Shown here: positions 1-39,876 of the stretch, piece by piece
Layout of the letters: the number at the start of each line of letters is the position of its first letter
Numbering within the stretch: the first letter of the stretch is position 1
NCBI GenBank assembly: GCA_964354545.1
Contig: CAYHAE010000008.1
Span: 1 to 48,464 of the forward strand
Direction: 5' to 3'
Origin: an uncultured Planctomycetia bacterium
GTDB taxonomy: Bacteria > Omnitrophota > Gorgyraeia > 2-01-FULL-45-10 > JAHFGN01
DNA: 48,464 bases
Position numbers and translations under genes: made by a program
Notes under the pieces: generated by a model
Databases searched by the model: none
What the model saw: the letters and a program-made list of their open reading frames with translations, nothing else
Told to the model about the DNA's origin: nothing

Positions 1-3000
1 TGGGACTTCACGGGGTCGAGCCCTAAGATGACGTCGAGGTTGAGCTCTCCCTCGTTCAGCCTTCTCTGCAAGAGCTTCTCATAGAGTCCTTTCACCATTG
101 GATAGAAGTCGTCTCGTGCGGGGTTGTCCCCGTAGGGGACGCCCTGCACGTTGCGTTCCCGCGGGGGGCTGTCGATGAGGAGCGTCATCACGATCGCGAG
201 GTCGAGTATGCCCGCCCACGGATAGACGTCCTCCTCGCCTTCCTGCCTCTGCCTATCGTCGATGGCGAGGACGCGGTAGTCGCCGTAGTCGCGGCCGTCC
301 GCGACAGTGGTGATGAGGAAGCCGGGCCTCGGCTCCTCGAGGCCTTCCTCCCGCAGAGAGTTCCTCGAGAGCGTGGAGCGCGTCCTGTACATCTCCTCGA
401 GGCGCTGCCGTAAACCCTCCCTCTTCCCTGAGAGGCTCACGAACTCGAAGCGTATGGGGTTGGCGCTGAAGCGCGCGTTCAAGCGCCTCTCCTTGAGGGC
501 GACGATGTCGGCGAACGTTTCGAGAAGGCCCTCGTCGCCTTCCCGCGTGAGCGGCAGCATGTCGACGTTGACGGCGACGGTGCGCGGGATGACCTTATCG
601 GTCGGCGAGCGCGACCGCGCGACTGCCTTTATGATATCGCGTGAGCCTTCGAGGCTCGAGAGGGTCATGTATTCGAGGGTAGAGAGGGCCTCTGCCGTGG
701 CGCGGGGCGAGGGCGTGGCGGGCGTGCGCACGAACCTCAAGAAGCGGATCGTGCCGCGGACGACCTCACCGGTCTCCTCGCGCGCTATGGCGACGCCTTC
801 CTCCGTGGCTGCCGGATAGGAGCCCGCCTTGTCGTAGAGGCTTCCGTCAATGGGCTTAAGGATGAAGCGCTCGCCGCCCACATCCCAGGCGACGGAGAAA
901 CGCTCTCCGTCTCCAGAGGTGAACGTCCCCGAGAAGTCGTCGGGGAACGCAGAGAAGTCATAGCTCACCCTGTCGGGAGCCGGCTGAGCCTCCTCGATGA
1001 GGCGCGCGCTATCAAGAAAGTCCGTCTCATCATATCTTCCACTCGTGGACTGGCGACCTTGCTGCTTTCCGGGTAAGTCGCCGTCCTCGATACTACTACC
1101 CGAGGAGGACTGGCGCCTGCCAGCTTCACCGTCCGTAGCCGTCCCCGAAGGGGACTGCCGCTCGCGAGTTTCACCTTCCGTAGGCGTCCCCGAAGGGGAG
1201 GTGCGTGTCTCAGGCGGTCCTTCTCGCGTCGAGCGAGATTGTCCCTCACCCGCTTTTTCCAAATCCGAATCCGGCCCTCGCGATCTCAGGTTTGCCAGGA
1301 AAGCTCCCAGAGCGCCAAAAACAGGCACGGAGAGGAGCAACAATGGGTGCGTGACCCCAAAGGCATAATGCAAAATAGCGATATAGAATACGAAGAAGCC
1401 GGCAAACGCACCCATCCCAAAGCCGGTAACGGTCCTTGGCAAGAACTCAGAGCCCTTCTCGGACCCTTTGAGATTCGCCAATAATACCCAGACGATAGAC
1501 CATGGCATCTCGACCACTGATATGCTCGAGACCATCTCCTGGGCTGTCGCGGTCCGGTTGAGATTGAAATACTGTATGGGTATCCATATGAGCCAGCACA
1601 GGACTATCGTTGTAAGAAGATTCCATTTGCGCTCTCTCCAGATCTCTCCCGCGATCATCCGCGGTGTCTTCATTGACGCGAGTTTCTCCTTCAGGGATAA
1701 TCCTTTCAGCTTATCGTAGAACCCGGAAACGAAGAAGGTCCAGAGGATGCTGGATGTCGCGCCCGCGGTCTGGTCTGTGAAGACCCTGAAGGCCTTGCCT
1801 ATCAGATGCGTGTTAGGTATGAAGTTCAGGTAGGCGACGTAATACCAGTTCCACACTATCCCAAAAATAAACCCGTAGACGAGAGCCGCTATCGCGATCT
1901 TTTTATAGTCGAGCTTCTCCTGGTCCCCTTTTAAGATGCCGAAGACTTGAGACAACAGTTCCCCTATGCCAAAATAGATCGTCGTGTTCACGTAATAGGG
2001 TATCGCACTCAAGATCACCGGGAAGCAGAAGTTCGCAAGCACCGCGAATAAGGCGGTGAGGCCGATGGACACGCCGATGACCGCATTCACATGCCCTTTC
2101 ATTACATTCAAGATCCTGCCGGACAAAGACGGGATCTGCGGCCTGTCGACCTCCCCGGCGACGTCTAGCGAAGGTTCGTCGCGCCGCTCTTCTCCGCTCG
2201 TTGAGCCGCGCGGCTCAGGTGGCCCTTCCCGCGTCGCGCGAGACCGCTCCTCGTCTTCACGTTCGCTTTCATCGTGACGGGGTGCGGCTGTTTTAGCAGT
2301 TCCATTTTTATAAATGAACAATACGAGCGGGATCAACCATGAGAGCAATGCATAGGGGTGGAGGTTTGTCGGCTGGCCCCGCAGTTCAGACGTGAGCACA
2401 TCGTACACGGAGAGGCCTAAGGGTATTATCGCTGAAAATAAGACGTGCCAGGTCTTGATGTTAACCAAGGGGCCCTGCCCTTGCGCGGGGCCTTCATCTG
2501 AACCGCTCGTTGAGCTCCTCCGGCCTTGTTCAAGACGGTCGCGCAAGATGGCCGGCGTCCTATTCTCGGTATCGGTGCGCCGTTCCCTCCTGCGCAAGGA
2601 GAGGGTATTGTAGCCCCATCCCTCCCGTTTCGAAAGGAAATCCGAGGGCTTCGTTATCGTCATCCCCTGCATCCCTCCGAGCGCTTCGAGCTCCGGAGTG
2701 GTGACAGGGACAAAGTCGCTCGAGAGGAAATCGTGCGAAAAGAGATGGTGCCCGGTATTCCACGGGGAGGACGAATCCTCTCCGAGCGTATATCCTCCCT
2801 CATTGAGATAACGCTGCTGGAGCTCCGCTACGGTCCACGCGGTCAGCTCTTCTGCATCTCTCTCTTTATCCATGTCATAATGAGGCGCCTTCTCCATGGC
2901 GATCGACACGCCCTGTTCGAGCAATTTTCGCAGGAGGGCGGGGCAGTGTTCTTCCGATGTGGTCCTGCGCACATCGAATGAACCGAAGAAGTATATGGTC

Positions 3001-6000
3001 CTCTCCTTCGGCGCCTCGCCCGGGTAGGCCCACGTGAAGCGTATCCTCCATATATCCTGCTCCTTGTCGATCGGCATTATCATATACTCGCCTCTTGCGA
3101 GGTCGAGGTACTCTTCGAGGATGAATTCCATCCACAGCCTGCTCGGCGCCAGATGGCTGAACGGCGTCCCCATCAGGTTCGTAAAGATCCTGTCCGTCTC
3201 TTGATCCCTCACCATCGCCGGCCTTACCTTCGCCTCGAACTCGTACCTCTTCTTGTTGCTCACGGGCCCGAATCTGGACTTTTCAATGAATATCGCCTCC
3301 GTGAAATCGGTGGCGAGGAGCGCGTGGTGGACGTCGGTGAACGAGTTGGGGTAGAAGAGCCTGGAGTTCGACCCGTCAGGGTTCACCACCGCGCGTATCT
3401 GTCTTAAGAACTCGAGTTTCCTTTCAGAGAAGAGACGCCTGAGCCCGTGAGGCCATTGCGGGGCCCCCCTCGTCGCTTCGCTCCTCGGGACTCCGCTCCT
3501 TGCGGTCGCGTCGCCGCTCGTCGAGTGACGGCCCGTCAAGGGTGGCCACGACTGATATTCCTTCCCCAAAACTAAATTGAACTCGCTCAATCTGTCTTTG
3601 GCCGTGACAAGAACTCTTCCATTATATGCGCGGTCAAATTGCCCGTACGTTATGTCGACGACGATCTCGTCGTCGACCAGGGCCAAATAGTGGTCCCGAG
3701 AAACGATCTGGTTCGATACGTCGGAATATCCGCGATAGCGCCCCTCAAATAAAGCCACAGACCTCCCTTTGAACAATCCGTTAAATGCCGCGCAGAAGCT
3801 ATTGTTCGCGTGAGCGCACATCGTACCTGAGGGGTCTTCCGAATCTCCGTCGGGCTCTCCTGCAGAAAAAGACCTTTTCAATTCCGCGAGCGCCGAGAAT
3901 ATCGCGCCATTGTCCTGATTCAACACCTCGTCCACACGAGAGAGAGTGATCTCGCCGGGTGCGAGGCTGCGAAGCTTATCTGCTATCACCTGCGTCAAGG
4001 CATCCCGGTGACTCTGCACCACATATCTTTCTCCTGTGCTCGTCCCGCTTGTGGAACCCCTGCTTCCGGCATCGCTGAACCCGATCGCGCCCTTCATCCA
4101 CTCTATCATGGGACTTTCCGCTTGATAGAAGGGACGCGGATGGGGAGAGTCTTCAGTCCCATCCACATACCACTGGAGGTTCATTATATCTACGAAACCC
4201 GCTGACTCCGGACCGACCGTCACGCCGAAGTAATCCTCGAGGAGCGCTATCTTTTGCTGATCACTGCATGACGTCATGATCTTATACAGATCATGCAGAC
4301 GGTATCCCAGAACCTGGTTCTGGTTGAGACCCCTCGTCCTTAACGCATTATCGAGGTCGTGGAAGAAGATCCTGTTATCGCAGTAGGAGATATTCGCAAA
4401 ATGAGGGAACATATGGATAAAACCGCTGTCGTGGAACCTGCGCAGCTCGCGGCCGACTTCTCTCACGACAGCAGGTTCGACGTATGTCGTAAAGTCGAAC
4501 ACGCCTTTTACTAGCCTCTTATCGAATTTGTCCTCTAACCCGAGGATCACAAAACCTACTTTCTGACCGTCAAATTCCATCCCTGTATACTCGCCGTACC
4601 CTATAGGGTACGGGACATTGAGGCCTGCCGCGATGCATTCAGATGCTATCTCAAACTCGTTCTGCGCCCTCTTAAGCAGCATCGTCCCTGTCGGCCTCTC
4701 CTCGGCTGTTGTGAATAATCCGAGCCCTTCGTCCGTCATCTCAAATATATCCGTGGGCCTGCCTTCACCCTGGTAATCTATCATCTGCGGCTCTCTGTCT
4801 ATCCCGCCGTAATGGTCTATCACTCCTTTGAGCCGTAAGGCGACTTCTAAGAAGTATATTTCTTTGCCTCCCACTCGGATCGGGTAAGGCAGGTCGATTA
4901 TAATAGACCGCCTTCCGGACGTGCGGTCATAGCGCATATTCTTCCAGCTCGCTGCCTCTCCTATCTTCCTAATGATCGATTCCGGCAGCACGTCGACAAC
5001 GTCCTTGGCGATATGTAATTTCACCGGATGCGGACCTTCGATGTCAAATTCCTGGAGGGGCCTTGCGCTGCCGCTCGCCGAACCGAGCGCATCCGGTCCT
5101 GAGTCCGCGCCCGAGGTGCTCGACCGGCCGCTCCCCTTCGTGCCCTTCCCCTCCCGGTCAATGGTGCTTCTGCCCGCCGCGTCCCGCGCCCGAGCCTCAG
5201 CATCCGGGGCCTGCCCTTTTCCTTTATCCTTTATCCCTAATATATCGAACCAGAATCTCTCTATCTCATCTTTGTACCGCTCGGCGACCTTGTCGAGGGA
5301 GTACTGGAAAAAGAGAATGAAGAAGAATGTCACAAAGGCGCTTAGGAAGGCCTGCCAGAGAGGCGCCTTTTCCCCGCCGAGCACGGCCGCTATCGTCAAC
5401 GCGGAACCGATAAGCGGGACGGCTATCACTTTAAGGAAGCCAAGCGCCTTGCGGAGAAATGTCCGACCGCCGCGCTCGCCCACCGCCTCTTCCAATCCGC
5501 GGCTGAGCCTCGAGGCGATATCGTCCGCCTGGTCTTCGAACGTGGTCGTGCTGGCCGAGGCGGGGTCCTGGGGATCGACGGAGGCAGTGATGTCAATGGC
5601 GAGGAATTGGACCCCATGCCGTGAGAGGTATCGCACATCGTTGACGATGCGCCGCGTGGTCTTTGCTATCTCCTCTTCGGTCGCCCGATGGCTGTTCCGC
5701 GGATCGACCCTGTCCTCAAACGACACGTAGTCGCCGTCGACGGTCGCGAGGGCCGGGCCCTTGAGCGTGCCGGCGAGACTCTTCGCATCTACCACTATGC
5801 CCTTTATGATCGTGCGGAACCCGTACCTCACCGCAAGCATGACGCGGTCGCTCATGGGAAGCACTACCAGCCCATCCCTTACTTCGACAGTCCCCGTCTC
5901 CCGCGCCGCATACCACTCCGGCACGATCCAGTAGACGCCGCTTATGAGGCCCTCTTCCGCAGCCCTTCTGACCCAATTATCGCCATTCACGTCTCTTCCC

Positions 6001-9000
6001 AGGGACGAACTGTCCGGATGCCTGTCGTAGAGGATGAGGGGCAGGCCTCTCGGTATTCTACCGGCCTCGACCTCCTCCTTGAGCCACCAGTAGAATTCGT
6101 CGTGGAGTACGCTCGTGTGAAGCCGGCCCGATGTGCTCGCTCTGCCCTGAGGACTTTCGCTATCACTGCGCGCAGACCCTTCTTCTGCGCCATCGGATCC
6201 ACCCTCCTCTTGAACCTGTGCCCTCATGCGGTTCGACCGCCATCCGAGGAAGATCTTCAACAAACCGTAGCCGGCGAGCACGGTGCCGGCGGCAGTAGCA
6301 ATACTCCAGCCCGCAGGCCCTGCAAGACCTTCCGCGGGGAAACGCTTCGCCGGCCTTGCAGGAGGCACGCGGACAAAAGTCCTTCGGGTGACTATGACAT
6401 TTGGTTCGGTCTTTTCCGCTGTCACATCGGGTTTCTTGTGACGGGCGATCATGAGACCGTTCGCGACAGGCCGGCCTCTGTGGAGGACCAATCTCTCCTG
6501 CCTCACGCCATGATGGATGCGGGCCACGACGGACCGTGAACTGCCTCCGTCGAGCGCGATTGCCTCGACCGCTCCCATACTTTTAAGGATATGTGCGGCC
6601 TCATGGAAGGACACGGCACCTCGCGCCGCGTGCAGCCACACGAGCAGGGCCTTCCCTTCTTTTGTAGTGCCAAGCACCATCCGGTCTGCGCTCGTCAATC
6701 CCGCCAATCTCTCCTCGACGGCGTTCACATAGACCTTTCCATCCATTATCAATCGAGGGCCTGCCATGAGGCCGTGGACGACGCCCTTCTCCTCCCAGCC
6801 CGGAGGAAGCGACCAGTGCCTCTCTATTTTGCTCCCTTTGGTGAAGGAAGAGGCGTATCTCCGCGCGCTTCCGTGGAACGAGATGACAAACCCGTCTTCG
6901 GGTATCTCGGAATTCCCTTTGCCCTGACGGACCTCGTCAACCTCATGCCGCATCGATACCGAACCGTCCCGGCGAGTACGGGAATGCTCCCTCACTATTA
7001 TCTCAATCCCGTAGTCGCTCGTCTCAGTATGTTTCCCATAAGCGGGGGTATAGACGACAAAGCCGTTCCGGCCGCGGGGCACGTTCACGCCGTGCACGAT
7101 GAAGTCGTCCCCGGCTTTCTTTGACGTGGTGAGCCAGTATTTCGGCATTTCGTCCGGTGAAGAGATGACCACCTTCGCAGGTTTTCCGGAAGACGGCTTT
7201 GTAAAACCTGCCATGCTTCGATGAATATTTGGCAGATTGAATACCAATACCTCCCCATCTTTCAGCACAAAGCCGATGGTCACTCCCGTGCGCAGGTCGA
7301 AGAAACCGCCGTTGACAGCGCCTTCCACGGTGAGGCCTGTCTCCTTCTGGAAGGAGGCTACCATAGCCTCAAGAGGCGCCGCTTCGAGCCCCGTCTGCCC
7401 ATTGGGATGCGTCGAAGGGACGATCTCGAGAGTCGTATCCCGGAGGTCCGCTGTAATGCGGTGCGTTTCGATGTATCCGTAGTGGCCGACACCGTAGTCA
7501 ACAGAATCTAAAGGATAGCCCGCGTGCACCTGAGGGGCAGCCCTCGCTGCGTCCTGACCGCACAGGCTCGCAGCGCCGACGAGGCCGCCTAGGGCGATGA
7601 GAAAGCCGCGTCGGGTCATCGGTGCCGCATACTCTTCCATACGGTCCGCGATCTTTTCAAGAATGTCTTCGACTCCGCTCGTCGAAAGCCTGACCTGCGG
7701 GAAGATATCGTTCCTTTCAGACAGAGCGACTATCCTTGGCCGCACGATCCCCACGCTCCTGTCCATTTCGCCGATACTGAAAGGCAGGGCTCGAGAAAAT
7801 CTGTTCCCCCGCTGCCATACTGTTGCAGCCACATTCCAGCTCAAGGTCTCCTCTGCGATCTTCGCGAAACCGGAATACATATGGAGCATGAAGAGCGGCA
7901 TGCGATCAAGGAAGTAGGGCACGAGGGAGCGCTCGTTCGCGTCCACCGTGAAGAGGAACGCGCCCTCCCTCATCTCCGTGAGGTTGCGCGCCATCTGCAT
8001 GATCGCGGCGTCCGACATGAGCGACAGCACATTGTTCATGAAGACTACATCCGCGGACCGGAGGCATGCGACGGTCAGAGGATCGAGCAGGCTTGCGCAG
8101 GCAAAGCCGAACGTCATGCGCGCGCGTATCTCGGGAAGCATCCGGTTGACAAATGCGAGCCCCTCGCGTGTCTCGGGCGGTTCTGTCCCTTCGACCGGGA
8201 AACTGGTGACCACATTCCGGTATGCCGCGTCGATGGTGCGGCTGTCAATGTCGACTCCCATCATGAAGAACCTGAGCCGGTCTATCCACCCTCTCCACCC
8301 GGGGATCCCCTTTGCCGCGTCCAACATCACTGCCCCGGCAGAGGCGAGATTGCACCCATAAGAAGACCCCAGGTCCAGGACCTTTATCGCGATGTCCCCT
8401 CCCCCGAAGCTCCGCAGGACTTTAAGGAGGTTCCGCCGGAACAGCTCCTCAAGGTAGCCGAGCTGGACGGGGTACCTCATCACCCACGAGCCGGTCTTGT
8501 TTCCCGCGATCCTCAGAAGATCGTGGAACGCGGGCGACTGGAGATCGACGAGATCCTGTGCGTACCAATGGGTGTCGCCGCCGTACACATTCCACAGGGT
8601 CTCCGAACTCGCTATCTGGGCCACCGCGTGGCCAACAGGATTACCCACGGTATCGACGAAGCCGGAGCCTATCCGCTGGAGCGCGGCAGATACCGCGGCG
8701 TAGAGGTCCTTCTCTAGAATAGCAATCGCATTGGCCTGGCCATGCACGAATGGAATGGACCCGCCGAAAACGCCTCGTCCGCTGGTCGATATCGCACCAT
8801 GGGGTACCTCATCGAGGACCCTCTCGACCTGAGCGCTCAGATGACCGCTTGTCGAGAGCCGTGTGTGCTTTTCGTCATGTTCGGGCCGGACCTCAGTGAA
8901 CGCTCTTAAGTATCCAAGCGCCGCATCGCGAACCCCAGAGTTTGGATGTTGTGCTGCCCGTTCCAAAAACCTCCTGCCGCTCTCCCTATTCTCTCTCGCT

Positions 9001-12000
9001 TTCGCGACGACCTCGACGGCCAGCCTCGCATACGATGGTCTGGCCGCGGACCTCACAAACGCATAGAAGTTCCCCAGGTTGCCTTCTTTAGCTAAATTGA
9101 CAAGGGCTTCGCGGCAGGTCTCGTAAAAATCGTCGTCCTTTGTGGGATATTCTGCTGCGGTGAGTATGATGGGAGGAATCGCTTTCTTGACGTCCAGTCG
9201 GCCGAGATATCTTATCGCCTCTATTTTATAATCGGGGATATACCGGCGCTGGGTGCCTTTTCTGACCGCGGCTAATCGCAACACTGCGTCGACCGCGAAC
9301 TGTGATGCGCCTTCAGGCCCGGCGCGAATCTCGACCCACAGGATATATGCGAGCGAAAGAAGGACGCCTGGGTCATTGATGAAATAGTCGGCCATATCAT
9401 TCAAGAATTCCCCGCTCGATAAAAGCGCTTCGAATCCGGAAAAGGTCTTCTCTATCTTCTCTCTCACCTCTTCTTCGGCATCTCCTTTCCTGATGCTAAG
9501 AGAGAGTTCGGCAAATCTGGCAAAACCCTCCCCATATTTCGAATTGCACGTCGCGCCGAGCAGAATCTTCTCCCGGGCGTTTTCTAATGTCCTCTCGCCA
9601 ATGCCTCTTATCTGCAGGAGGTCGTCAACACCTTCGAACTTCTTAGCAGACCTCGCATCTCTCGTACGAACGATCTCCGCTCTCTGTGTAGCATTGAACC
9701 CCACTATCCTCAATAACCTGTCATCACCACTGGCAGCACAATTAACAACCCGCACCATCTCCGTGTCACACTCAGCCGGGGTTGCATGAGGCCTGAGTCC
9801 CGCGCCGACGATTAATGCCTCTCGGGGCTGCCCGGCTTCAGCCGGTGTTTCCGCTCCGCTCGTTGACTGCCGCTTGCGAGATTGACCTTCAGTAGGCGTC
9901 CCCGAAGGGGACTGTCCCCGAAGGGGACGCCCTGCACCTGTCGTTCCTGTGGGGGGCTGGCGACCTTGCTGCTTTCCGGGTAAGTCGCCGTCCTCGATGC
10001 TACTACCCGAGGAGGACTGCCTGCCCTCCGAAGCCCTATCGCTCGCTTCACCTGAGGCGAAGGAGGGCCGCTTGCGAGATTGACCTTCAGCAGGCGTCCC
10101 CGGAGGGGGTTGCTGCGCGTCTTCTGAAACGCTGCCATCGCCTCTGTTAACTTCAGCAATATGAAAATAGGGTTCCTCTCTTACAAGTAAAACGCCGGGA
10201 ACCCTGAGCCCTTCCCTCAGCATAGTGACGAATATCTGTGCGCTGCCACGATCACGCGTGCCTTCAAATGCAGGAGATGCGGTCCACGTGTAACGCCACA
10301 TATTTATATGTGACGGTATGTAGCGCGCCATAGTGGGCCACTGTTCGTCTTTTGTGACATCGCCATAGAAAAATCTATAATGTACGAGCGCCCTCCAATC
10401 GCCGGGGAGGCTTTCGACGAACTCTCTCATATACAGCTCTGCCGCCCTTAGCTTATCTTCATTTATGTCATAGCCTATAAGCATGATATGCAATTTTTTC
10501 TCATGCTGTTCACAGTACGCCCTTATCATTTCTGCCACCTCGATCAATTCGGCAGGCCTGGAGCCTAAACCAAATGTCGTGGCTACTGCTTCTCCTGTAG
10601 ATCTATCGACGATCAACGGTATAGCCTCGTTGAGAGCGGCAACTTCCTCGGGCTCAAAACTCCAATTTGCTTCTGCGTGAGGAGGCTCTGCGGTATGGCA
10701 GGCTACGATAGCGCCGATCAAATGTCGATCATCTGAATCAGCATAAGGTAAAAACCATTGAGCCATCTCTGTAACGTGAGCGCTTGAGAGAGACGGAAGA
10801 GTCGCTCTCACTAAAGTTTCCAGGCGCGCCGCATCTTCGAGCCGCGGCGTGCCATCAGACGAATCTTCCCCGCTCGTCGAACCCCTCGCCTGCGGCATGA
10901 CCGTACCCTCCACTGCCGCCACCGCTTCTATCTCTACGAGCAACCCGGGACGACAGATGTCGGCCACCACATACAGCGCGGGAACGCCCGGGAAGTACTC
11001 CTCGCATATCGCTTTCACCGCCTCGACGTTCTCACGGTTCTTTACGTACACCCTGAATTGTGTGATATCTTTGAGCGTCGCGCCGGCGTCGATCCCATGG
11101 TCCTCGAGGTTCGCGCGCGCGATGAGTTTAGCGATATTGTCGACCGTGGTGTGGGTCTGCACCTCTATGCCTCCCGGCACCGTATCCTGTCCCTTGATGC
11201 CCGCCGTGCCTGAAACAAAAAGGTGCACGTGGCCGTCTTTCACCACCGCCTTTGCCCTCTCGAATTTCGGCGTCGCCTTGACAGGCTGGTCGGCCGCGGC
11301 CTTGCCCACCAGGACCTCTTCGGCGTACCTGTGCGCATCCACCTGTTCCGGATTCTTTATCGGGATCACATAGACATCGGGCCTCCCTGTTGCAAGCGCG
11401 GTGAACTCAAGGACCACGCCTCCTGTCGTCGTGCCTATGCCCGTGGCTGCCGGATAGTTGCGCGTAAGACTAGCGCGTCCGTACCAGGCTGCGCGCACAT
11501 CGTTGAATATCTGATATTTCTGCCTTTCCCCCTCGAACCCTACGATGTCCTCGATGTAATTCCACTGGCGGCACACGTCCCGGAAGGTAAATCCCTCCCG
11601 GACCAGGATCGCGCTCATTATAGCGAATGCGGCCTCTGCCTTTTCGCGCGTCCCGACCTTTGTTTCATCCTCAATCCCTGCAGCATAGAGCCATGTCACG
11701 CCATCCGCTTCGACGACCGTATAGGGGATCGAATACTCCTCTGTCATAAACAGCTTATGCTCTATCTTCATCGTGCCTTTTTTCGGACGGAGCACGGTGA
11801 ATTCCATAGACACCTGTTGGCCAAAAGCGGGAGGCTGTCCAACGAAGCTCACTGCGGGCACGGAATTCTCATAGTAGATCGCGAGCGGCGCCTGCGACTC
11901 GGCCTTCTTGCGCGTGTGGTCTTCATTATCGACGGCGCTCACGAGGACGGTCTGCTTCACGACGTTCGTGTGGTCGAGCCCCTGGTCGCGCAACAAGGCA

Positions 12001-15000
12001 TCTATCTGGTAGAGGCAGTCCTCGAACTGTTCCTCGTAGGTATCGCCTTTTGCAGGAATGACCGTGGCGCGGATCTCGTCGTAGCTGCCCATGTCGCTCT
12101 CTGTGTACGCTGTCCGGAGCGGCGCCCCGCTTGTAGACCCACGGAGCGGAAAGCGTTCGAACCCTTGCGGTCCAAGACGGATATCCGCCTTTCGCAAGGT
12201 ATCGAGTTGGCTTATGATGTTCAACTCTTCAGTTGAAGGGAAATCGAGGCCAGTGTCAGCCTGGTAGGAACGCGCGGCGGCGTCGCGGACCATTCCCTCG
12301 CCAGCCTGAATGATCGCGCGGACTGCATCGACCAATTGAGGACCATAAAAATCGAATATCGATAGGAGAGTGCCTATGTGCGTGTCCGCGGGCCTTTCCA
12401 ACCTTCCGTATTCATCTGCCGTGTGACGGATCGGACCCATCAGGGAGGAGAAATAATCTACTCCCAGAGATTCGCCGATCTCCGATAATGCGACAAAACC
12501 TCCCAGCGTATCGGGCGTTGGCCACATACCGCTCGCGACATCCCCTCGTGCCTGATTTAAGTAGAATCCGAGCCTGAAGAAAGGCGCGTGGCTCGGTGCG
12601 ACTGCGCCGACTTTGGCGACGCGTTCGCTCTGGAGCGGAGAGACCTGCATGTCCGGCTGCACCAGATCGTGGAACTGGTGGAGCGCCTCTTCCAACAGCA
12701 TCGACTCGAAGATGTCCCATGCGATCTGCTCGATCACTGATCCCTCATCAAGGGTTCGGACGAGTTCGCCCCACTGGGCGTCGAAGAGCGCGAATGCGGG
12801 ATTGACAGTCCCTTCGTCCGGCGGCGCGTCCGTGAGATACCTGTACATCGCTGCGGCACGTCCCCATAGCCCTGCCACCGACACATGCGTTGAAAAGATG
12901 CTCGACCACCCGCCTTCAACCCCCGCCTCCTGGCCGATACACCACAGGTAGCGAGGACGGTCTTCGCGCATATAGCTGAAGACCGTTTCTACCGGGGCCA
13001 TTGTGAAAGGCCTCTCCCAGTCGATCCTCCCGCTTACCGCCTCCTGATAGATAATCACGTATCCCTTGCGTGCGGACACGCTATTGATCTCATTGAGCGT
13101 CAATGCGAACTGCGTAATGTTACCTTCGCCGGCCTGAGCGAGAAGGCTTCGCACCTGATCCCGGAAGCCCTCCCTGTCCGCAACCACTTTGGAGCGCTCC
13201 GCGATCTGTTCTATCTCATCAGGCAAAAGGGCGGTGGGGCTCGGCGATAACGGCTCGATCTCATTGACCGCGTTCGCGAGGAGATCTATAAACTCTCGCG
13301 TGAGGGGGTCCGGCTCAATACCGTATCCCAGAGCGAGCGGGGGACGGTTCCTGCCGCTAGGATCGCCTTCAAGGAAACTCTCGTCGAGCGCCTCGAAGAC
13401 CGCTGTGATCCTCGCCCTCAGGGCTGTATCTGCGCTCTCTATGTACGCCCCCCTTAAGCGCCCGATCTCTTCCCTATAACCTTCAATACCGAGGTCGCGT
13501 AGATGGCGCAATACGAGCATCCAGTAATAATTGTGCTCTATGATCTGCAAAAATTGCTCTCTCTGGTCTTCGGTCAGGCCTTTCTGATCCCTTACCGTTG
13601 CCACCGCAGCCTGGTAGGCAGTGTCGAGGTTCGGAAGCTGGTCATCGCGAAAGACAATACGTCGGAACGTTTGGTCAGCGAGCGACCTGCCGTAATAGGT
13701 CTCTGTCAACGCTATGTGCGAGATATGGTCGACATACGCTTCGAAGGCCGCGAGCATCCCTTGCTCAGCCACACGCGCGAACCGTGCTTCGGCCGCCTCT
13801 TCGGCAGCCCGTATGGCCCCTGCCGTATCGCTTGTGTCGCCGCTCGTGCTTTCTCGGCCCTCTCTTTCTACGCCTGGGGTGGATTTTCGTGATCGGTTCG
13901 ATGTCGCATCCACTCTTTTCGCTACTACCGTTGCAAATTCAGGCACGAATTCATCGTCTCTCAAAGACCTCTTGGACCCTTTGATCTTTACGACATCGCA
14001 ATCCCATTTGCATTGCAGGTCCTTTTCATGTCCCTGCAATACCCAGACAGCTTCTCGATGTTCGCCTGACGCGCCACCTGCAGCGATAACCAATGCGGGC
14101 CTCCCCTTATTGAGAACTTTCTCTATCTCTTCGAGCCCAAATTCCCATCCAATGTTAAATGCTACCGCGGCCTCGTCCACTTTTTCTTTAGGTACGCCCT
14201 TCGTGAAACTTTCACTAATCGTATGTCTGATCTTGTTCCTTCCGGCACTAAGCTCGAGTTGGCCATGTCTCATTCTCTCGCTCTCTACAAAAATAACTTC
14301 TTTTGCCCCCAGCCTTCCGGCCAGCAACCCCAAAAGGCCCTTACCGGCACCATAGTCGATAAAGACCCTGTTCGCAACATCTTCCCTCGATGCCTGAATA
14401 GCGATGACAGCTCCCTGAGTGGTTCCGGGCGGGAAGCCGCCAAATAAGATCTCTTCTACTACCACTGGTATCACCATGACGGCAGGAGATGATAGTTCCA
14501 GACAATTTAGATTGAGCTTCTTTGCCACAGAATCTTTCAAGAATATGACGTCTCCTATCCGCCATAGAATAGTGCCTTCATCCATGCACCCCGCTGCTTC
14601 CGTTACATACTTCTTCCCTTTAAATGTTACCGTGTCGATCTTTTTCCTTTCGGCGGCCGGATACTCCTCCTTGGCCATCGTGAATATATCAGTAACTATT
14701 GCCTCTGCGCTCTTCTCTCTGGACGGCCTTTCCGCCCCTGAGGTAGACTGCCGCTCGCGAGTTTCACCATCCAGAGAGCGGCGCAGGAGAGGTAAGAGGT
14801 TCTGCCGTAACGCGTGCGCTATGGCGTTAAACTCGGCAAGGATGTCGGGCGTGTCTTCCCCGTAGTTCTTATGTGTGAACGGAAGCAGCTCGTTGAGCAA
14901 AAAGACCTTCCCCCTGGCTTCCGGGATCCGGTCAACGACAAATTTACGATGAGACTCTTCAGCCACGATGACGATATCCGCGCGCCGCACCGCATCGAAC

Positions 15001-18000
15001 GATAACCCGTTGAGCTTCGGCCTAAAGCGGTCCACCACCTCTGGCTTTATGCCTTTTTCAAGGGCTTCTGTTTTAACCTCTCTATTTACCGTGAAGAGCG
15101 TTTCCGCGTCACGCGGGTCCCACTTCTCTATCCCTCCGGACGAAACCGATACGATATCCTGTAAGCCGTTACTTTCGATAAAGTCTTCGGCGACCATATG
15201 CATGATGGGAGACCGGAGGGCATTCACGCGGCACAGGAAATGCATGACGACCTTCCCGCGGGACATCGCGCGGACGATTATCGCCTTGATCGCGTCGTAT
15301 GTGCGTTGAGCGCCCTCTACCCGGGAAGTAACGGCATCCATCGCCTGTTCGGCAGATGAATACGGATTGCCAAAAGGACCGATGCCGATCGAGGGGAATA
15401 ATGTGCCGCTGTGGTCAGTTGCCACATAGCCGATGGAGGAGAGGCCATAGATATCGCATACGATCTTCTGTGACGCTCCTGTCAGATCAGTGACGGCAAT
15501 CTCATTATGGCGAACGCGGCCGGCCTTGCCGGACCGGATAAATTCCTCAACTCTGGCAGGAGATATGCTTTGATGATAAATGACCGCCCCGACACTCAGC
15601 GTGGCCACCTCGATCGTCCGTTTGTCATCTTCCACAAATAACGCAACGTGCCTCTGTTCTATGGCAGGCCCGGCCGGCACAGGAGAGACGTAGGCGACGC
15701 CTTCCGTTATCGTCAATCGAGACGCCTTTTGGTCTCTCCCTAATTCCACGAAAGTGTCAAAATAGTACCGTGCGTCTATCTCCTCTCCCTTATCATTCAC
15801 GACAACGATATAAAAACGGCCTCCTTCCCTGCAGATCTTTACGAAAAGCCATTTTGATGTACGCCCATCCTGAGCAGCGCTCTGGATCCGCAGAGTTACA
15901 GGGTGTTCCTCGTCGCACGTGATCTTATTATTCCTCAGGCGCCGAAGCACAATGTGGTAATCACAAAGTTCGCTCGGTACTGCCGCCCCTGAGGAGGACT
16001 GCCTCTCGCGCGCTTCACCGTCCTTAGGCGTCCCCGAAGGGGACTGGCGCTCAGGAGCTTTGCCTGTTGTAGGCGTTCCCGAAGGGAGCTGTCCCCGAAG
16101 GGGACGCCCTGCAAGCGTCGTTCCCATGGGGAGCTGGCCGGCATCGTCTCTCCCTTCTTCGCGCGGAGTGTCCCTTTTTGACGCGTCCCCGCCAATAAAC
16201 TGCCTCACGATAGAATCGTGAGGGATATCCACGTTCGCCGTCACGGCCCGCACGCCTTTCAGAATGAATAGAAGATGCGTGATCGCATTGACGGACTTCG
16301 TGTCCTTTTCGGCGCGAGCTCGCGCGAGCGCATCTTTCAAGACCGGCTCGATATGGGGTTTCAGAACAGGGAGTTCGTAGGGAAGATAGCTATTGAAAGT
16401 AACATCCGCGTTCTTCCACGAAGGATACACATACGTAAGGTCGTGCTCCCGCGTCGCCGGCCATTCTCTCACAATAGTGAGCGGGTCCTTCCCGAATATC
16501 GCGGTAAAGGTGAGGATATGCCTTAAGAAACGGAGATCGAGTGAGGTGAGCGGTCGATTTTTCGCGAGTTTCAGGCTTGGCGCGGTATTGACAAATATGC
16601 CGTATGTTCTTTCGTCTTTTAAAGGCCCGCTATCTTTATCGAGCAATTCATCGCTCAATACATAATCGCCTTCGATAACAAATACAACACGGCTGCCCGC
16701 GCGTCTTGCTGCCGCAAGGTCCCCTATCTCCTCCAGCATTTTGTTCACTTTCATCCGGTAGAGATCCTCGCCGGAATACCCTTGCCTTCTGAGCCCTTCC
16801 TCGTAACCGGCAAGCTGCGCGTCCATATCGATCCTTTTCGCATCCCAACCCAATTGGGACAATTCGCGGGCGATCCGTTCGGAGAATTCCATCTTCCCGC
16901 TTGTTTTCGGCCCGCTCACCAGAACGAAACCGCCATTCTCATTTTCAAAACGGCTATTGATCTCTTCCGTAATTTTCCTGATCTTTTCTCTATGTTTTTG
17001 CTCGTCCCTTTCGATCAGACCTTGATATGCGCGCTCTCGATACAATCGACCGAGCTCCTCTACCGTGTCGGGATCCAATCCGAGCTTCCCATAACCTTCA
17101 TAGGGCCTCGCCCGCTTAAAGAACCGCGCGATCGCACAGAGCATCCTCAATAGCCAGCTCCTCGCGATCTCGGCGTTCGCGATTCTCGCCAGGCTCACTA
17201 TGTATGCCGCCTGCCGCAGATCGACCTTATATTCTTTGGCGACAGCGAGGACATTCTCGCTCTCTCTCGCTATTCTCTCTTCGAGCATCTTATCGACGGC
17301 AAGGCCGCTCCAACACCTCCCTTCGATATTCTGCAGCCACTCAAAATACGACACGGTGACTCCGCCGACATTTGCGAGGACATCGGGGATGACGAGGATC
17401 CCTCTCTTCTTTAAAATCTCATCGGCGGCCGGTGTCGTCGGGCTATTCGCCAATTCAAGGACGATACCGCACTGTATATCTTTTGCGTTCTCCAGGGTAA
17501 TCTGGTTCTCTTTCGCGGCGGGGACCTTGATATCTGTGTACGTCGTCCAGAAAAACCGTTCATCTACTTTCGCAGTTCCGGTCTCTTCCAGAAATCGTCG
17601 GGACACGGTATCGAGGGCCGCCCATCTGCCGTCGGCTCCGCGCACAAGCGCCCTATCCAATGCCTCTATATCGATACCATGTGGATTGTAGAGCGTGCAC
17701 GTCGCATCCTGAAGCAGGGTTATCTTAGCGCCGGCCCTAAAAAACTCCCATGCGTTGTATTCGCCGACATTCCCCGCACCCTGGATCGCAACGCTCATCA
17801 CGCTTATATCTTTTCTCAGCACCGCTCTGGCGGTTTCATTTAAGCGGGCGCTGACCGGGTCGTGCTCCCCCTCTGCGACATCGGAGAAATATTTCTTGAC
17901 CGTTTTAAACGCAAGAAATCCGCCGAATCCTGTCGCCTTGGTCCTCCCTTCAGACCCGCCCTTGCCGACCGGCTTTCCGGTTACCACGCCCAGCTCAATG

Positions 18001-38181: not shown

Positions 38182-39777
38182 TCACTCCAGCTGGCAGCTG
38201 ATGCTGAACGACGACGCCGCCCCTTCCTTTGACGGCCGTTCTTGTATCGACGTCAATTGCGCATCTTTTAGACAGGGGGATTTCTCCATATCCTCCATGA
38301 ATTTTGTCAAGGACGACTCCGCCGGCCCGCTCTTTTCGTACACAACCCCTGCGATCTCCATCGTCTTGGATTCGGCATCGAGCCGCACCGTGTGCAGGAC
38401 CGTGGCGGGCTGGATGATCGCGGAGAGGACCCTCATGATGTATTCGATATCGAGTTCGTCTTCCTGTGTGACCTCGAGCAATTGCTCCCTCTCCTTTATC
38501 TTTTCGCTGAGGGCCCTCACCTTTGCGAGCACCCCCTTGTGCATCGCCGCATTCTTCACGCGCCGTCCGTAATCGTCAACCTTCAATTTAACCGCCACGT
38601 ACGAGAAGACGAGGAGGACTCCCACGATGATCGATACGAGCCTCACGGATATCTTCTGCGCCAACTCCACCTTCTCCAGCCTGTACTCCACCGGCAGCAG
38701 GTTGACCTTCTTGCTCGTATTGAGCGCAACCCCTACGGCGCCCATGATCGAAAGAGACTCTTCTTCGGAAATCGCGAGACCTGAGGCGCCCATCCCTTTC
38801 GGGATCCCCATCTTCTTCACGGGCAGGCCCAATTGCTCGCTGAGGTATTTCTCGATATTCTTCAAGCGGGAACCGCCTCCCGCAAGATAGACGGCTGACA
38901 CGCCTTCCCCGCTGATCTCAGAGACATAGTATTCTATGGACCTCTTTACCTCCTTTGCGAACCGTTCCAATGTGCCCCGCATGAGCGTGAGGACCTGGAT
39001 CGAAGTGATATCCTTCTCAAGGCGCATCGGCTCGTACGGGATGCCCAACTGCTTTTTTACCTCCTCGGCATCGTCCCACGAGAGTTCCTTCCGCTCCGTC
39101 CCGCTTGAGAACGGGGCGCACAGGGACGCGGTGATATCTCGCGAGGCGATCGGGATCGTCCTCACAAACTGCAGCGTCCTGTTTCTATAAAAAGATATAT
39201 CCGTCATCGAATGGCCCATCTCAATGACGACGATGGACGAGGACAGATCCGCCTCGCTCGCCCGCACTACGTTCTCAAGGGCGAAGGGCGGGGCGTTCAC
39301 CGAGAGGATGCGCACATTCATCTTCTTGAAGGGCCCTATCTTCTTTTCTATCTCCTCCTTCACGGCCGCGATAAACAAGACCTCGACCGTCTTCCTGGTG
39401 CCTTCTTTCTGGGTATCCTGGATCTGCTTAAAATCGACGGTCGCCTTATCGATGTCGAACGGAATCCTCTCCTTTACCTGCCACCTGAGCGCATCCGATA
39501 TCTCCTGCAGCGGCATAGAGGGAAGGCTGATGCGCCTTATGTTAAGGAACTCCCCTGAAATCACCATGTAGACACTGGAGCGCGCCGCGTTGTGGTCCTT
39601 TAAGGTACGCACAATGGCGTCAGCGAGGATACCCGTATCCGGCTCCTTCGGAATAATGAGGACGGAGAAGAACTCCAGGCGCGGCATCGCACCCGACTTC
39701 AGGCCCACTATCTTAACGGCATACGACCCTACATCGATACCGACAACGTTCGAAGTTCCCCTTTTAAAAAAAAGCAT
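38182..39777 (-). CDS. pilM: Type IV pilus assembly protein PilM fused to a PilN-like domain
   Basis: VGIDVGSYAVKIV, actin-like YLAGGGSRL, then KVNLLP + TM + coiled coil (PilN-like). Confidence 0.88.
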   Translation of the reverse strand: MLFFKRGTSNVVGIDVGSYAVKIVGLKSGAMPRLEFFSVLIIPKEPDTGILADAIVRTLKDHNAARSSVYMVISGEFLNIRRISLPSMPLQEISDALRWQVKERIPFDIDKATVDFKQIQDTQKEGTRKTVEVLFIAAVKEEIEKKIGPFKKMNVRILSVNAPPFALENVVRASEADLSSSIVVIEMGHSMTDISFYRNRTLQFVRTIPIASRDITASLCAPFSSGTERKELSWDDAEEVKKQLGIPYEPMRLEKDITSIQVLTLMRGTLERFAKEVKRSIEYYVSEISGEGVSAVYLAGGGSRLKNIEKYLSEQLGLPVKKMGIPKGMGASGLAISEEESLSIMGAVGVALNTSKKVNLLPVEYRLEKVELAQKISVRLVSIIVGVLLVFSYVAVKLKVDDYGRRVKNAAMHKGVLAKVRALSEKIKEREQLLEVTQEDELDIEYIMRVLSAIIQPATVLHTVRLDAESKTMEIAGVVYEKSGPAESSLTKFMEDMEKSPCLKDAQLTSIQERPSKEGAASSFSISCQLE

Positions 39778-39810
39778 GCGTCCCTTTTATCTCCTATGCT
39801 TATTAAGGCA

Positions 39811-39838
39811 ATTATATCATGGCGATGTCAAAATACAA
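39811..39838 (-). promoter_or_regulatory. Possible sigma70 promoter for pilM
   Basis: TTGTAT, 16-nt spacer, TGn-TATAAT. Confidence 0.45.
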
Positions 39839-39876
39839 TGGATGAGTAATGAGAAAGTCCCTCGCGAGCGATGTCC

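What the first reader, a model, noticed from the sequence alone, without database searches (positions are those of the whole stretch)
6126..7691. A complete Tat-exported membrane-anchored enzyme embedded between two RxSTSG sites
Seen: 18 residues after RLSTSG comes MTRRGFLIALGGLVGAASLCGQDAARA|AP, a textbook twin-arginine signal (T-R-R-x-F-L, h-region, AxA). It is followed by a NAGPA-family phosphodiester glycosidase, a C-terminal TM helix and then RASTSG. Known: Tat signals normally work near an N-terminus. Inference: an intact signal about 6,400 residues into the protein makes most sense if cleavage at RxSTSG (or internal initiation) exposes it. That is independent support for the polyprotein model, and suggests whole genes were captured as cassettes.
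Basis: partly seen in the sequence, partly recalled or inferred. Interest (0 to 1): 0.88.

Follow-up and report, generated by a model that had tools for sequence, protein, structure and literature searches.

The report
Export-signal enzyme module inside giant gene
Deep inside a giant bacterial gene that strings many unrelated enzymes together sits a complete secreted-type enzyme with its own twin-arginine export signal and membrane anchor, framed by a six-residue motif that punctuates such genes in this genome, which gives a concrete, testable candidate for where and how these giant proteins are cut up or threaded through the membrane.

Summary
Window 3-26858 (minus strand) is one open frame of at least 8,952 codons. 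RLSTSG lies at residues 6390-6395, MTRRGFLIALGGLVGAASLCGQDAARA at 6414-6440, then a NAGPA/DUF2233-fold domain, a disordered tether, a weakly hydrophobic helix, three arginines, and RASTSG at 6906-6911.

RxSTSG occurs 19 times in this frame (0.014 expected) and 91 times in the genome's long frames. Its codons vary synonymously, so selection acts on the peptide.

- The RR segment is the only match to the Tat-signal model in the genome, though below cut-off (14.6 against 16.7 bits).
- The genome has tatA and tatC.
- Two other giant frames carry Tat-like signals 4 residues after RASTSG.
- Four of six embedded homologues, counting this one, keep RR. None of the stand-alone ones does.

Tat signals are known to work internally, so cleavage is not required. 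No Shine-Dalgarno sequence or promoter supports internal initiation, no protease was found, and the direction of gene capture is unresolved.

Best reading: a self-contained Tat-type export cassette in a multi-enzyme giant protein. Cutting at R-x-S-[T/P/S]-S-G is plausible but unproven.

The parts
3..26858 (-). Giant open frame, at least 8,952 codons, running off the contig end. It is a multi-enzyme chain: HATPase_c, PseudoU_synth_2, Arginase, Glu/Leu dehydrogenase, LMWPc, methyltransferase-like, FkbO_N plus RidA, HHH, NAGPA.
7674..7691 (-). RLSTSG, aa 6390-6395: upstream copy of the recurrent R-x-S-T-S-G boundary motif.
   Evidence: A related strain's contig reads R-Q-S-T-T-G here, with Arg encoded by another codon family (loose end of X1, my reading).
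7620..7673 (-). 18-residue acidic spacer VEDILEKIADRMEEYAAP between the motif and the Met. It would be the n-region if the chain is cut at the motif.
7539..7619 (-). Tat-type signal or first membrane helix, aa 6414-6440: M-TRRGFL, Gly/Ala-rich h-region, c-region DAARA with Arg, and A-R-A before AP.
   Evidence: TIGR01409 14.3 and 14.6 bits, below the 16.7 cut-off; KD19 maximum 1.42; model helix at residues 11-27
6441..7523 (-). Globular NAGPA/DUF2233-fold domain, module residues 33-393 = aa 6446-6806. The Pfam NAGPA match covers aa 6643-6804 (window 6447-6932).
   Evidence: (59 columns invariant across the query and 8 stand-alone homologues)
6309..6428 (-). Disordered tether of about 40 residues between the domain and the anchor.
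   Evidence: pLDDT below 50 at module residues 398-445
6240..6308 (-). C-terminal membrane helix WSIATAAGTVLAGYGLLKIFLGW, aa 6851-6873. It is absent from stand-alone homologues.
6144..6239 (-). Predicted cytoplasmic tail: RSNRMR, then an acidic Gly/Ser-rich linker.
   Evidence: The positive cluster after the helix is shared with P0014 (QRRMEN) and P0016 (SRRMRN).
6126..6143 (-). RASTSG, aa 6906-6911: downstream copy of the boundary motif.
   Evidence: The contig of run X4 spans it with no differences.

Best explanation
Residues 6390-6911 are a self-contained export cassette inside a multi-enzyme giant protein. The features of the genome match those published for Omnitrophota giant genes, but I did not determine the taxon.

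The cassette has four parts: a Tat-type signal (TRRGFL, a weakly hydrophobic Gly/Ala h-region, a c-region with Arg and A-R-A), an intact NAGPA/DUF2233-fold phosphodiester glycosidase domain, a roughly 40-residue flexible tether, and a weakly hydrophobic anchor helix followed by three arginines.

Inferred mechanism:
1. The domain folds in the cytoplasm as the giant chain is made.
2. TatC recognises the RR motif.
3. The folded domain is moved to the outer face of the cytoplasmic membrane, held there between the signal helix and the C-terminal helix. Both flanking R-x-S-T-S-G linkers therefore stay in the cytoplasm.
4. The linkers are probably cut by an unidentified sequence-specific protease, before or after export. 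That would leave a module resembling known N-signal, C-tail-anchored Tat substrates. Signal peptidase may also cut at ARA|AP.

Shown here: the anatomy, the fold, the recurrence and peptide-level conservation of the motif, tatAC in the genome, RR conserved in most embedded homologues, and module-limited homology.

Inferred: Tat dependence (my odds about 0.55), cleavage at the motif (about 0.5), and the order of the events.
For: Anatomy and fold. All 59 columns invariant among 8 stand-alone homologues are kept by the module.

Motif:
- There are 19 copies in this frame against 0.014 expected. Codons vary at every position (Arg by CGA/CGC/CGG/CGT/AGG/AGA, Ser by TCN and AGY), so selection is on the peptide.
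- There are 91 copies in the 34 frames of 1200 aa or more, and 90 of the 91 STSG there follow R-x.
- A same-order relative, G003, has 11 RxSPSG (all 11 SPSG follow R-x) in a 5,543-aa frame whose GDH module is 71.5% identical to ours. One of its sites aligns with our RQSPSG/RQSSSG at aa 3604/3619.
- Giants of other lineages that hold the same module have their own recurrent short motifs next to it: GARL x7 in P0015, GLEE x5 in P0022, ASLG x4 in P0014.

Tat:
- tatC and two tatA are present.
- A six-frame TIGR01409 search of the genome gives exactly one match at E <= 10, and it is this segment.
- Relatives G003 and G002 carry ordinary N-terminal Tat signals of very similar form, for example VSRRGFLKLGGIGVATAAVAG.
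- [ST]RR.F[LFIVM] occurs 14 times in 7,105 frames. Four are followed by an uncharged hydrophobic stretch, and three of those four are in giant frames: C8, C52 and C26.
- In C52 the RR lies 4 residues after RASTSG. In C43 RASTSG-TGMSRGHFLK precedes a GH5 cellulase domain.
- The C52 and C43 signal modules have no later hydrophobic helix. An uncut chain would therefore have to drag the following linker, and in C52 more than 3,300 further residues with HEAT and HD domains, across the membrane.

Homologues: RR-x-F-[LV] is present in 4 of 6 embedded modules and in 0 of 8 close stand-alone proteins, or 0 of the 6 further stand-alone loci read. A C-terminal helix plus positive cluster is present in 4 embedded forms and 0 stand-alone ones.

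Only this module is shared between our giant and P0014, P0015, P0016, P0021, P0022 and L112. The homology runs from aa 6400-6414 to about 6890, that is between the two motifs.
Against: - The Tat-model score is below the curated cut-off, and Pfam TAT_signal gives nothing.
- One embedded homologue has R-G in place of R-R (L112) and one has no RR (P0015).
- The contrast between embedded and stand-alone forms amounts to about one change on the tree. Stand-alone forms are a single clade (SH-aLRT 99) among an unresolved embedded grade, so the counts are not independent.
- A conserved return helix that stand-alone forms lack is what an uncut, threaded chain needs. A module freed before export would not need it.
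- No protease with a plausible role was found in about 33,000 residues of motif-bearing frames scanned with Pfam. The only peptidase was Peptidase_A8, that is LspA.
- Motifs also occur in tandem 15 residues apart (aa 8552-8607). That pattern suits a repeated docking or modification site as well as it suits a cleavage site.
- Hydrophobic segments are not generally enriched just after the motif: 7 of 91 against 4.1 +/- 1.8 at random places, with 52 of 500 trials reaching 7.
- The giant frames begin with a conserved signal-like leader, which complicates any topology for the uncut chain.
- There are no expression or protein data.
Confidence: 0.45

Rival explanations
1. Uncut chain, Sec/YidC insertion. 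The RR helix and the C-terminal helix are an ordinary hairpin of transmembrane segments in a multi-pass giant protein. The two arginines act only as positive-inside charges. R-x-S-T-S-G is a linker element with a role other than cleavage, such as phosphorylation, glycosylation or docking.
For: - The return helix with a cytoplasmic positive cluster is conserved in embedded modules and absent from stand-alone ones.
- The 2026 preprint 10.64898/2026.06.07.730766 reports up to 147 predicted TM helices in such giants and reads them as threaded membrane proteins (passages and section 8 read).
- The Tat model score is below cut-off.
- L112 has R-G and P0015 has no RR.
- The motifs occur in tandem.
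- S-P and T-P sites are common in the long linker form.
Against: - The whole S/T-R-R-x-F-L pattern is kept across modules only 34-50% identical, not just positive charge.
- The h-region is below the classical 1.6 Kyte-Doolittle threshold, at 1.42.
- The C52 and C43 signal modules have no return helix.
- By a crude count, many inter-motif segments have odd helix numbers: 15 with one, against 2 with two.
- A strict five-position motif is more than a flexible linker needs.
Confidence: 0.25
2. Tethered Tat signal without any cleavage. [quoted passage not shown] The RxSTSG motifs play no part in it.
For: - Dual Sec/Tat membrane proteins with internal Tat motifs are experimentally established. Their Tat-dependent helices have low hydrophobicity and are followed by positive charge (PMC5449189, abstract and passages read; PMC3471235, search listing only).
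- This h-region is weakly hydrophobic, and an Arg sits in the c-region.
- The return helix keeps the downstream chain in the cytoplasm.
Against: - In the published families the Tat-dependent helix is the final one and the exported domain is C-terminal and holds a cofactor. Here another helix and more than 2,000 residues follow, and no cofactor domain was detected.
- C52 and C43 lack a return helix.
- This rival does not explain why the motif is so strictly conserved.
Confidence: 0.2
3. Internal translation initiation at ATG 7619 produces the module as a separate protein with a true N-terminal Tat signal.
For: A Met directly precedes x-R-R (x-R-G in L112) in 3 of 5 embedded modules that carry a Tat-like signal: ours, P0014 and L112. 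In C43 a Met precedes SRGHFLK.
Against: - There is no Shine-Dalgarno sequence at a usual distance. GGAAGAG ends 12 nt before the ATG.
- There is no promoter-like site on the minus strand in 5800-8200.
- No stop codon ends the module, so such a product would still run on into the downstream modules.
- C52, P0016 and P0022 have no Met before RR.
Confidence: 0.05
4. Artefact: the giant frame is an assembly chimera or a decaying pseudogene array, and the signal is a relic.
For: The genome is a fragmented assembly of 102 contigs, and many giant frames run off contig ends.
Against: - 8,952 codons are open in DNA of 57-59% G+C.
- The module keeps all 59 family-invariant columns.
- Contigs from other public runs cover both the ATG 7619 region and the RASTSG junction without rearrangement (records 12 and 13).
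- Giants of the same architecture are published.
Confidence: 0.03

Closest known systems
Giant 'multi-enzyme metabolic cluster' proteins of Omnitrophota (bioRxiv 10.64898/2026.06.07.730766; West-Roberts et al., bioRxiv 10.1101/2023.11.21.568195)
   Same: - One frame tiles many unrelated Pfam enzyme families together with membrane helices.
- About 18% of a 2.2-Mb genome lies in frames of 1200 aa or more, including a contig-filling frame of 33,581 aa.
- Type II secretion/pilus genes lie nearby (T2SS E and F, PilM/N), as those papers describe.
- An embedded signal peptidase II domain is present, a content the 2026 preprint also lists.
   Different: - The 2023 paper states that cleavage points are unknown (passage read).
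- The 2026 preprint downgrades internal signal-peptide calls as chunking artefacts, and its main text holds none of the words cleav-, polyprotein, Tat, motif or processing.
- A recurrent boundary hexapeptide and internal Tat-type signals are therefore not described in those two texts. Their supplements could not be seen.
- I did not establish the taxon of this genome.
[quoted passage not shown] 2012; Tooke et al. 2017, PMC5449189)
   Same: An RR motif lies directly before a weakly hydrophobic helix far from the N-terminus, with a folded extracytoplasmic domain behind it.
   Different: In those proteins the Tat-dependent helix is the last one, and the domain is C-terminal and binds a cofactor. 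Here the domain is a glycosidase-type fold with no detected cofactor, a further helix follows, and the chain continues for more than 2,000 residues.
C-tail-anchored Tat substrates such as hydrogenase and formate dehydrogenase small subunits (recalled from memory, no call)
   Same: The module on its own has that layout: a Tat signal, a globular domain, one C-terminal helix and a short cytoplasmic tail.
   Different: Those are separate gene products with true N-termini and redox cofactors. This one is embedded at residue 6414 of a giant frame.
Viral polyproteins cut at short conserved sites by a dedicated protease
   Same: A single frame holds many unrelated functional units, separated by a short, strictly conserved, lineage-specific peptide motif.
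   Different: No protease was identified and no cleavage has been shown. The host is a bacterium, and the modules include membrane and exported enzymes with their own targeting signals.
NAGPA / DUF2233 phosphodiester glycosidases (PF09992; PDB 5h3k, 6ozd, 3ohg, 6u11)
   Same: The sequence family and the fold match. The nearest stand-alone relatives, in Elusimicrobiota MAGs at 37-38% identity, are also signal-bearing exported proteins.
   Different: Stand-alone relatives have a short Sec-like h-region followed by DQPRRQVP and end at the domain. The embedded form has an RR-x-F-L signal, a tether and a C-terminal helix.

Membership tests
Twin-arginine (Tat) signal peptide | Consensus S/T-R-R-x-F-L-K | tested here: met
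   T-R-R-G-F-L-I matches five of the six defined positions, with Ile in place of Lys. The consensus itself is recalled.
Twin-arginine (Tat) signal peptide | Score above the curated cut-off of the family models (TIGR01409, PF10518) | tested here: not met
   TIGR01409 gives 14.3 bits and 14.6 bits against 16.7. PF10518 gives no hit at E <= 10. It is nevertheless the only TIGR01409 match in the genome.
Twin-arginine (Tat) signal peptide | Weakly hydrophobic h-region and a c-region with basic residue and A-x-A | tested here: met
   KD19 maximum is 1.42, against 2.1-2.25 for strong helices of the same protein. The c-region reads DAARA|AP.
Twin-arginine (Tat) signal peptide | Lies at the N-terminus of the translated product | tested here: not met
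   It starts at residue 6414 of a frame of at least 8,952. There is no sign of internal initiation.
Twin-arginine (Tat) signal peptide | Tat translocase present in the organism | tested here: met
   TatC scores 220.6 bits. Two TatA genes score 72.2 and 66.2 bits, one adjacent to tatC.
Twin-arginine (Tat) signal peptide | Export depends on Tat and on the RR pair | not testable with these tools
   Needs export assays.
NAGPA / DUF2233 (PF09992) | Family model above cut-off over nearly its whole length | tested here: met
   74.4 bits against 25, profile positions 14-168 of 169.
NAGPA / DUF2233 (PF09992) | Fold | tested here: met
   The model core has pLDDT mostly 75-95. Foldseek probability is 1.00 to 5h3k, 6ozd, 3ohg, 6u11 and 6pku.
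NAGPA / DUF2233 (PF09992) | Conserved residues of close relatives retained | tested here: met
   59 columns are invariant across the query and 8 stand-alone homologues. I did not map which of them are catalytic.
Dual Sec/Tat tethered-signal membrane proteins | The Tat-dependent helix is the final transmembrane helix, followed by a C-terminal cofactor domain | tested here: not met
   A further helix at aa 6851-6873 and more than 2,000 residues follow. No cofactor domain was found. The definition comes from PMC5449189.
Dual Sec/Tat tethered-signal membrane proteins | Low hydrophobicity of that helix plus positive charges after it | tested here: inconclusive
   Low hydrophobicity is met. Only one Arg follows the helix, along with one Asp.
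Polyprotein with protease-cut boundaries | Short conserved motif recurring at the boundaries of functional units | tested here: met
   19 RxSTSG here and 91 genome-wide, conserved at the peptide level. Module homology ends at the motifs. Pfam domains lie between motifs.
Polyprotein with protease-cut boundaries | A protease that recognises the motif | tested here: not met
   Only Peptidase_A8 was found in the motif-bearing frames scanned. The rest of the genome was not scanned for peptidases.
Polyprotein with protease-cut boundaries | Separate mature products exist | not testable with these tools
   No protein data. No RNA run was listed.
Omnitrophota multi-enzyme giant proteins | Many distinct enzyme families in one very long membrane-associated frame | tested here: met
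   compared with section 8 of the 2026 preprint.
Omnitrophota multi-enzyme giant proteins | Organism belongs to Omnitrophota | not tested

The most novel reading that the evidence does not exclude
This bacterium makes true polyproteins. Giant chains of unrelated enzymes are cut in the cytoplasm at R-x-S-[T/P/S]-S-G by a dedicated protease that co-evolves with its site. Other lineages use GARLA-, GLEE- or ASLG-type sites. Modules meant for the cell surface carry Tat signals because they have already folded by the time they are released, so Tat is the export route forced by the polyprotein strategy. In this genome the Tat system would then serve mainly or only polyprotein-derived substrates.
Probability: 0.3. 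Interest if true: 0.9.

Novelty: new variant of a known kind. Interest (0 to 1): 0.7.

Why it matters
The open question about bacterial giant genes is whether they act as one chain or are cut into pieces. West-Roberts et al. state that the absence of known cleavage points blocked even computational dissection.

This work provides a strictly conserved, peptide-level boundary motif with exact coordinates. It also provides a module whose own targeting signals make definite, cheap predictions:
- Tat dependence.
- A loop topology.
- Neo-N-termini after the motif.

If cleavage is confirmed, this would be a polyprotein strategy in a cellular organism. It would also give a new rationale for Tat export. 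If cleavage is refuted, the module would be the first tethered Tat signal followed by a return helix and thousands of further residues.

It also shows that discarding internal signal-peptide calls in giant proteins, as the 2026 preprint does, can throw away real information.

Tried and rejected
- **Embedded relatives, word-index search.** In the 862-2460 aa class none was found. The exhaustive representatives search then found them in longer proteins.
- **Paralogue in this genome.** tblastn with the module found none. Pfam later showed a weak second NAGPA-like stretch in C41, at 27.2 bits.
- **The module in 40 relatives.** Only one weak hit, 29% identity in G023. The module is not found in those searched.
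- **Linker-region search for other RxSTSG giants of 4923-15666 aa.** 14 candidates, none scored.
- **General enrichment of hydrophobic segments after the motif.** Not significant.
- **Helix parity between motifs.** I used a crude Kyte-Doolittle count that includes false positives such as Rossmann strands. It is only a weak argument.
- **Counting embedded against stand-alone forms as independent cases.** Rejected after the tree.
- **Expression data.** No RNA holder was listed. The runs laid were low-depth DNA contigs of related strains, which show presence and continuity only.
- **Literature.** 'polyprotein' with 'Omnitrophota' gave 0 papers. A search on giant proteins, proteolytic processing, linker motif and multi-enzyme gave nothing beyond the two preprints already read.
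- **Not available here.** SignalP, TatP and DeepTMHMM could not be run, and supplements of papers were not seen.
- **Complex prediction.** Not used, because no candidate protease was in hand.

Numbering note: searches count from the stop before the frame, which is 8 residues ahead of the ATG-based numbering used elsewhere.
Full report
**What is there.** The window is the whole of contig C8 of a 2.23-Mb, 102-contig assembly rated 99.7% complete. Its minus strand carries one open frame from 26858 down to base 3. The frame is 8,952 codons from its ATG and runs off the contig. Pfam finds unrelated enzyme families along it:
- HATPase_c
- RluA-type pseudouridine synthase
- arginase family
- Glu/Leu dehydrogenase (189 bits)
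- low-molecular-weight phosphatase
- FkbO_N plus RidA
- NAGPA near residue 6,700

Upstream on the same strand lie PgpA, a MiaB-like radical-SAM enzyme, RodZ, FtsK, BacA, PNPase, PilM/N and type II secretion F and E.

**The observation.**
- RLSTSG at aa 6390-6395.
- 18 residues of spacer.
- MTRRGFLIALGGLVGAASLCGQDAARA|AP from aa 6414 (ATG 7619).
- A domain, then a helix WSIATAAGTVLAGYGLLKIFLGW followed by RSNRMR.
- RASTSG at aa 6906-6911.

An AlphaFold model built on an alignment with eight stand-alone homologues gives four pieces:
- a confident beta-rich core (module residues 33-393)
- an N-terminal helix (11-27)
- a disordered stretch (398-439)
- a C-terminal helix (440-471)

Foldseek places the core with DUF2233/NAGPA structures (5h3k, 6ozd, 3ohg, 6u11, 6pku) at probability 1.00. 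The module keeps all 59 columns that are invariant among those homologues. So it is a complete enzyme domain with an export-type signal in front and an anchor behind.

**The motif.** RxSTSG occurs 19 times in the frame, where composition predicts 0.014. It occurs in none of the other five frames of the window, and 19 of 20 STSG follow R-x.

The codons differ from copy to copy at all five fixed positions. What is conserved is therefore the peptide, not the DNA.

Genome-wide, 34 stop-to-stop frames of 1200 aa or more hold 133,190 residues, which is 17.9% of the genome. They carry 91 RxSTSG. A 33,581-aa frame that fills contig C3 has none.

About a third of the copies sit at the end of a longer linker of the form R-[A/Q]-S-P-[S/P]-G-T-P-T-x-G-E-x-x-E-RQSTSG. 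Variants RxSPSG, RxSSSG and RxSTTG also occur, sometimes in tandem 15 residues apart.

A same-order relative, G003, has a 5,543-aa frame with a GDH module 71.5% identical to ours. It has 11 RxSPSG and no RxSTSG, and one of its sites corresponds to our RQSPSG/RQSSSG at aa 3604/3619. The general motif is thus R-x-S-[T/P/S]-S-G.

A contig of a related strain reads R-Q-S-T-T-G at the upstream site of our module, with arginine from the other codon family (my reading of the loose end).

**Is the signal a Tat signal?**

For:
- It has T-R-R-G-F-L, a Gly/Ala-rich h-region below the classical Kyte-Doolittle threshold (1.42), and an Arg in the c-region with A-R-A.
- tatC and two tatA genes are present.
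- A six-frame search of the whole genome with TIGR01409 returns exactly one match at E <= 10, and it is this segment.
- Relatives G003 and G002 have ordinary N-terminal Tat signals of very similar form on Mo/FeS-type enzymes. Four in G003 are above cut-off.
- A strict pattern scan finds 14 [ST]RR.F[LFIVM] in 7,105 frames. Only four are followed by an uncharged hydrophobic stretch, and three of those are inside giant frames:
  - this one
  - C52, SRRGFF, 4 residues after RASTSG
  - C26, SRRTFL with a lipobox, 49 residues after a variant RASTTG
- A fourth module, in C43, reads RASTSG-TGMSRGHFLK and carries a GH5 cellulase domain.

Against:
- The model score, 14.3-14.6 bits, is below the curated 16.7, and Pfam TAT_signal is silent.

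**Homologues.** The exhaustive search found 1,776 relatives at E <= 0.001.

The closest include proteins of 7,462, 4,677, 3,248 and 1,068 aa in which the module is internal. A metagenome locus, L112, has it inside a frame of at least 4,248 aa. Their signals are as follows:

| Module | Signal |
|---|---|
| P0014 | M-DRRTFVK |
| P0016 | GRRDFLK |
| P0022 | NRREFLT |
| L112 | M-NRGDFIK |
| P0015 | hydrophobic helix without RR |

Counting ours, 4 of 6 keep RR-x-F-[LV]. The four with RR also have a C-terminal helix followed by a positive cluster (WRSNRMR, QRRMEN, SRRMRN). P0015 has neither.

Eight close stand-alone proteins, and six further stand-alone loci (four named Elusimicrobiota MAGs and two metagenome contigs), have a short Sec-like h-region followed by DQPRRQVP. 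They end at the domain.

On a tree the stand-alone forms are one clade (SH-aLRT 99) among an unresolved grade of embedded forms. The contrast is therefore about one evolutionary change. It says nothing about who captured whom.

Between our giant and each of the others, only this module is similar. The similarity runs from aa 6400-6414 to about 6890, that is from one motif to the other. The other giants have their own recurrent short motifs right next to the module: GARL x7, GLEE x5, ASLG x4.

**Mechanism.** Three readings fit the anatomy.

(a) The chain is cut at the motif and the freed module is exported by Tat as an N-signal, C-tail-anchored protein.

(b) Tat recognises the signal while it is still tethered, as in Rieske-type dual Sec/Tat proteins (PMC5449189).

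(c) The two helices are an ordinary Sec-inserted hairpin.

In all three readings both motifs stay cytoplasmic and the enzyme faces outward.

Reading (c) explains the return helix. It does not explain why the full Tat consensus is retained at 34-50% identity, nor the C52 and C43 modules. Those have a signal but no return helix and, in C52, more than 3,300 further residues with HEAT and HD domains.

Reading (b) has precedent, but in the known families the Tat-dependent helix is the last one.

Reading (a) explains the strict, lineage-specific motif and the signal-only modules. It also gives a rationale for Tat: a module released from a cytoplasmic polyprotein is already folded. Against it, no protease was found, only LspA, the tandem motifs are odd for a cleavage site, and the return helix would be unnecessary if cutting came first.

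I therefore commit to a Tat-type export cassette, with cutting in the cytoplasmic linkers likely but unproven.

Internal initiation at ATG 7619 is unlikely. There is no Shine-Dalgarno sequence at a usual distance, no promoter-like site, and no stop codon to end such a product.

**Comparison with what is known.** The genome looks like the published Omnitrophota giants:
- many enzyme families in one frame
- membrane helices
- T2SS genes nearby
- a conserved signal-like leader on the giant frames

I did not establish the taxon.

The 2023 paper proposes cleavage but says the cleavage points are unknown. The 2026 preprint suppresses internal signal-peptide calls as artefacts and mentions no cleavage, motif or Tat in its main text. 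Supplements were not seen. 'Polyprotein' with 'Omnitrophota' finds no paper.

The finding is thus a new variant within a known kind of object. What is new is an internal Tat-type cassette and a recurrent boundary hexapeptide.

**Limits.** There are no protein or RNA data.

Noticed in passing
window 1038-1205 (aa 8552-8607), also aa 2186-2223, 3604-3624, 5613-5668: Linkers made of tandem 15-residue units that each begin with R-x-S-[P/S/T]-S-G, for example RTSPSG...RQSPSG...RQSSSG...RQSTSG. About a third of all sites share the longer form R-[AQ]-S-P-[SP]-G-T-P-T-x-G-E-x-x-E-RQSTSG.
   Followed up: partly
window 8778-8795 (aa 6022-6027): The only STSG in the frame that is not preceded by R-x. It reads A-I-S-T-S-G and lies 22 residues after a regular RLSTSG.
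   Followed up: no
G000 contig C3 (100,745 bases): The whole contig is one open frame of 33,581 codons, open at both ends, with no RxSTSG. It is a second class of giant gene in the same genome.
   Followed up: no
N-termini of giant frames on C8, C33, C43, C26, C23, C52, C70 (window 26760-26858 for C8): Giant frames share a conserved leader: basic residues, a hydrophobic helix, then [HA]-[QY]-D-[LI]-x-W-A-[QY], or ITPDYAWAVKAG in C52 and C70. It looks like a Sec signal with an A-x-A-type end.
   Followed up: partly
window 38182-48403, minus strand: PilM/PilN fusion, T2SS protein F and T2SS/T4P ATPase E lie upstream of the giant gene, as published for Omnitrophota giant-gene neighbourhoods.
   Followed up: partly
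L022+L023 (G003 contig C125): A same-order relative has a 5,543-aa frame with 11 RxSPSG (every SPSG follows R-x) and no RxSTSG. Its GDH module is 71.5% identical to window aa 2728-3610.
   Followed up: yes
P0015, P0022, P0021, P0014: Giants of other lineages have their own over-represented short motifs flanking the NAGPA module: GARL[AS] x7, GLEE x5 and x3, ASLG x4. This suggests lineage-specific boundary motifs are general.
   Followed up: partly
L006 (G000 contig C33), frame aa about 1084-1361 and 647-916: Signal peptidase II (Peptidase_A8) modules are embedded between RASTSG sites, with the helix ELWKIFPALFAMPIFSFVAGLLLKRAR duplicated. The same frame also holds AlaDH, GT2, dCMP deaminase, NTP transferase, Metallophos and an MbnB-like domain.
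   Followed up: partly
L003 (G000 contig C26), frame aa about 864-890: An internal SRRTFL signal with a lipobox (L-T-G-C) lies 865 residues into a 4,049-aa frame, 49 residues after a variant RASTTG. Pfam TAT_signal gives 15.6 bits and TIGR01409 13.2 bits, both below cut-off.
   Followed up: partly
whole genome G000 compared with G002 and G003: This genome keeps tatA and tatC, but no conventional N-terminal Tat signal was detected with TIGR01409. Relatives have such signals on Mo/FeS-type enzymes.
   Followed up: partly
L007 (G000 contig C41), frame aa 265-331: A second, weak NAGPA-like stretch (27.2 bits) lies at the 5'-truncated start of another motif-bearing giant frame. Its N-terminus is missing from the assembly.
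   Followed up: no
G000 contig C31, start of the 5,102-aa frame: A run of X in the translation, meaning withheld or N bases, lies near the start of a giant frame.
   Followed up: no
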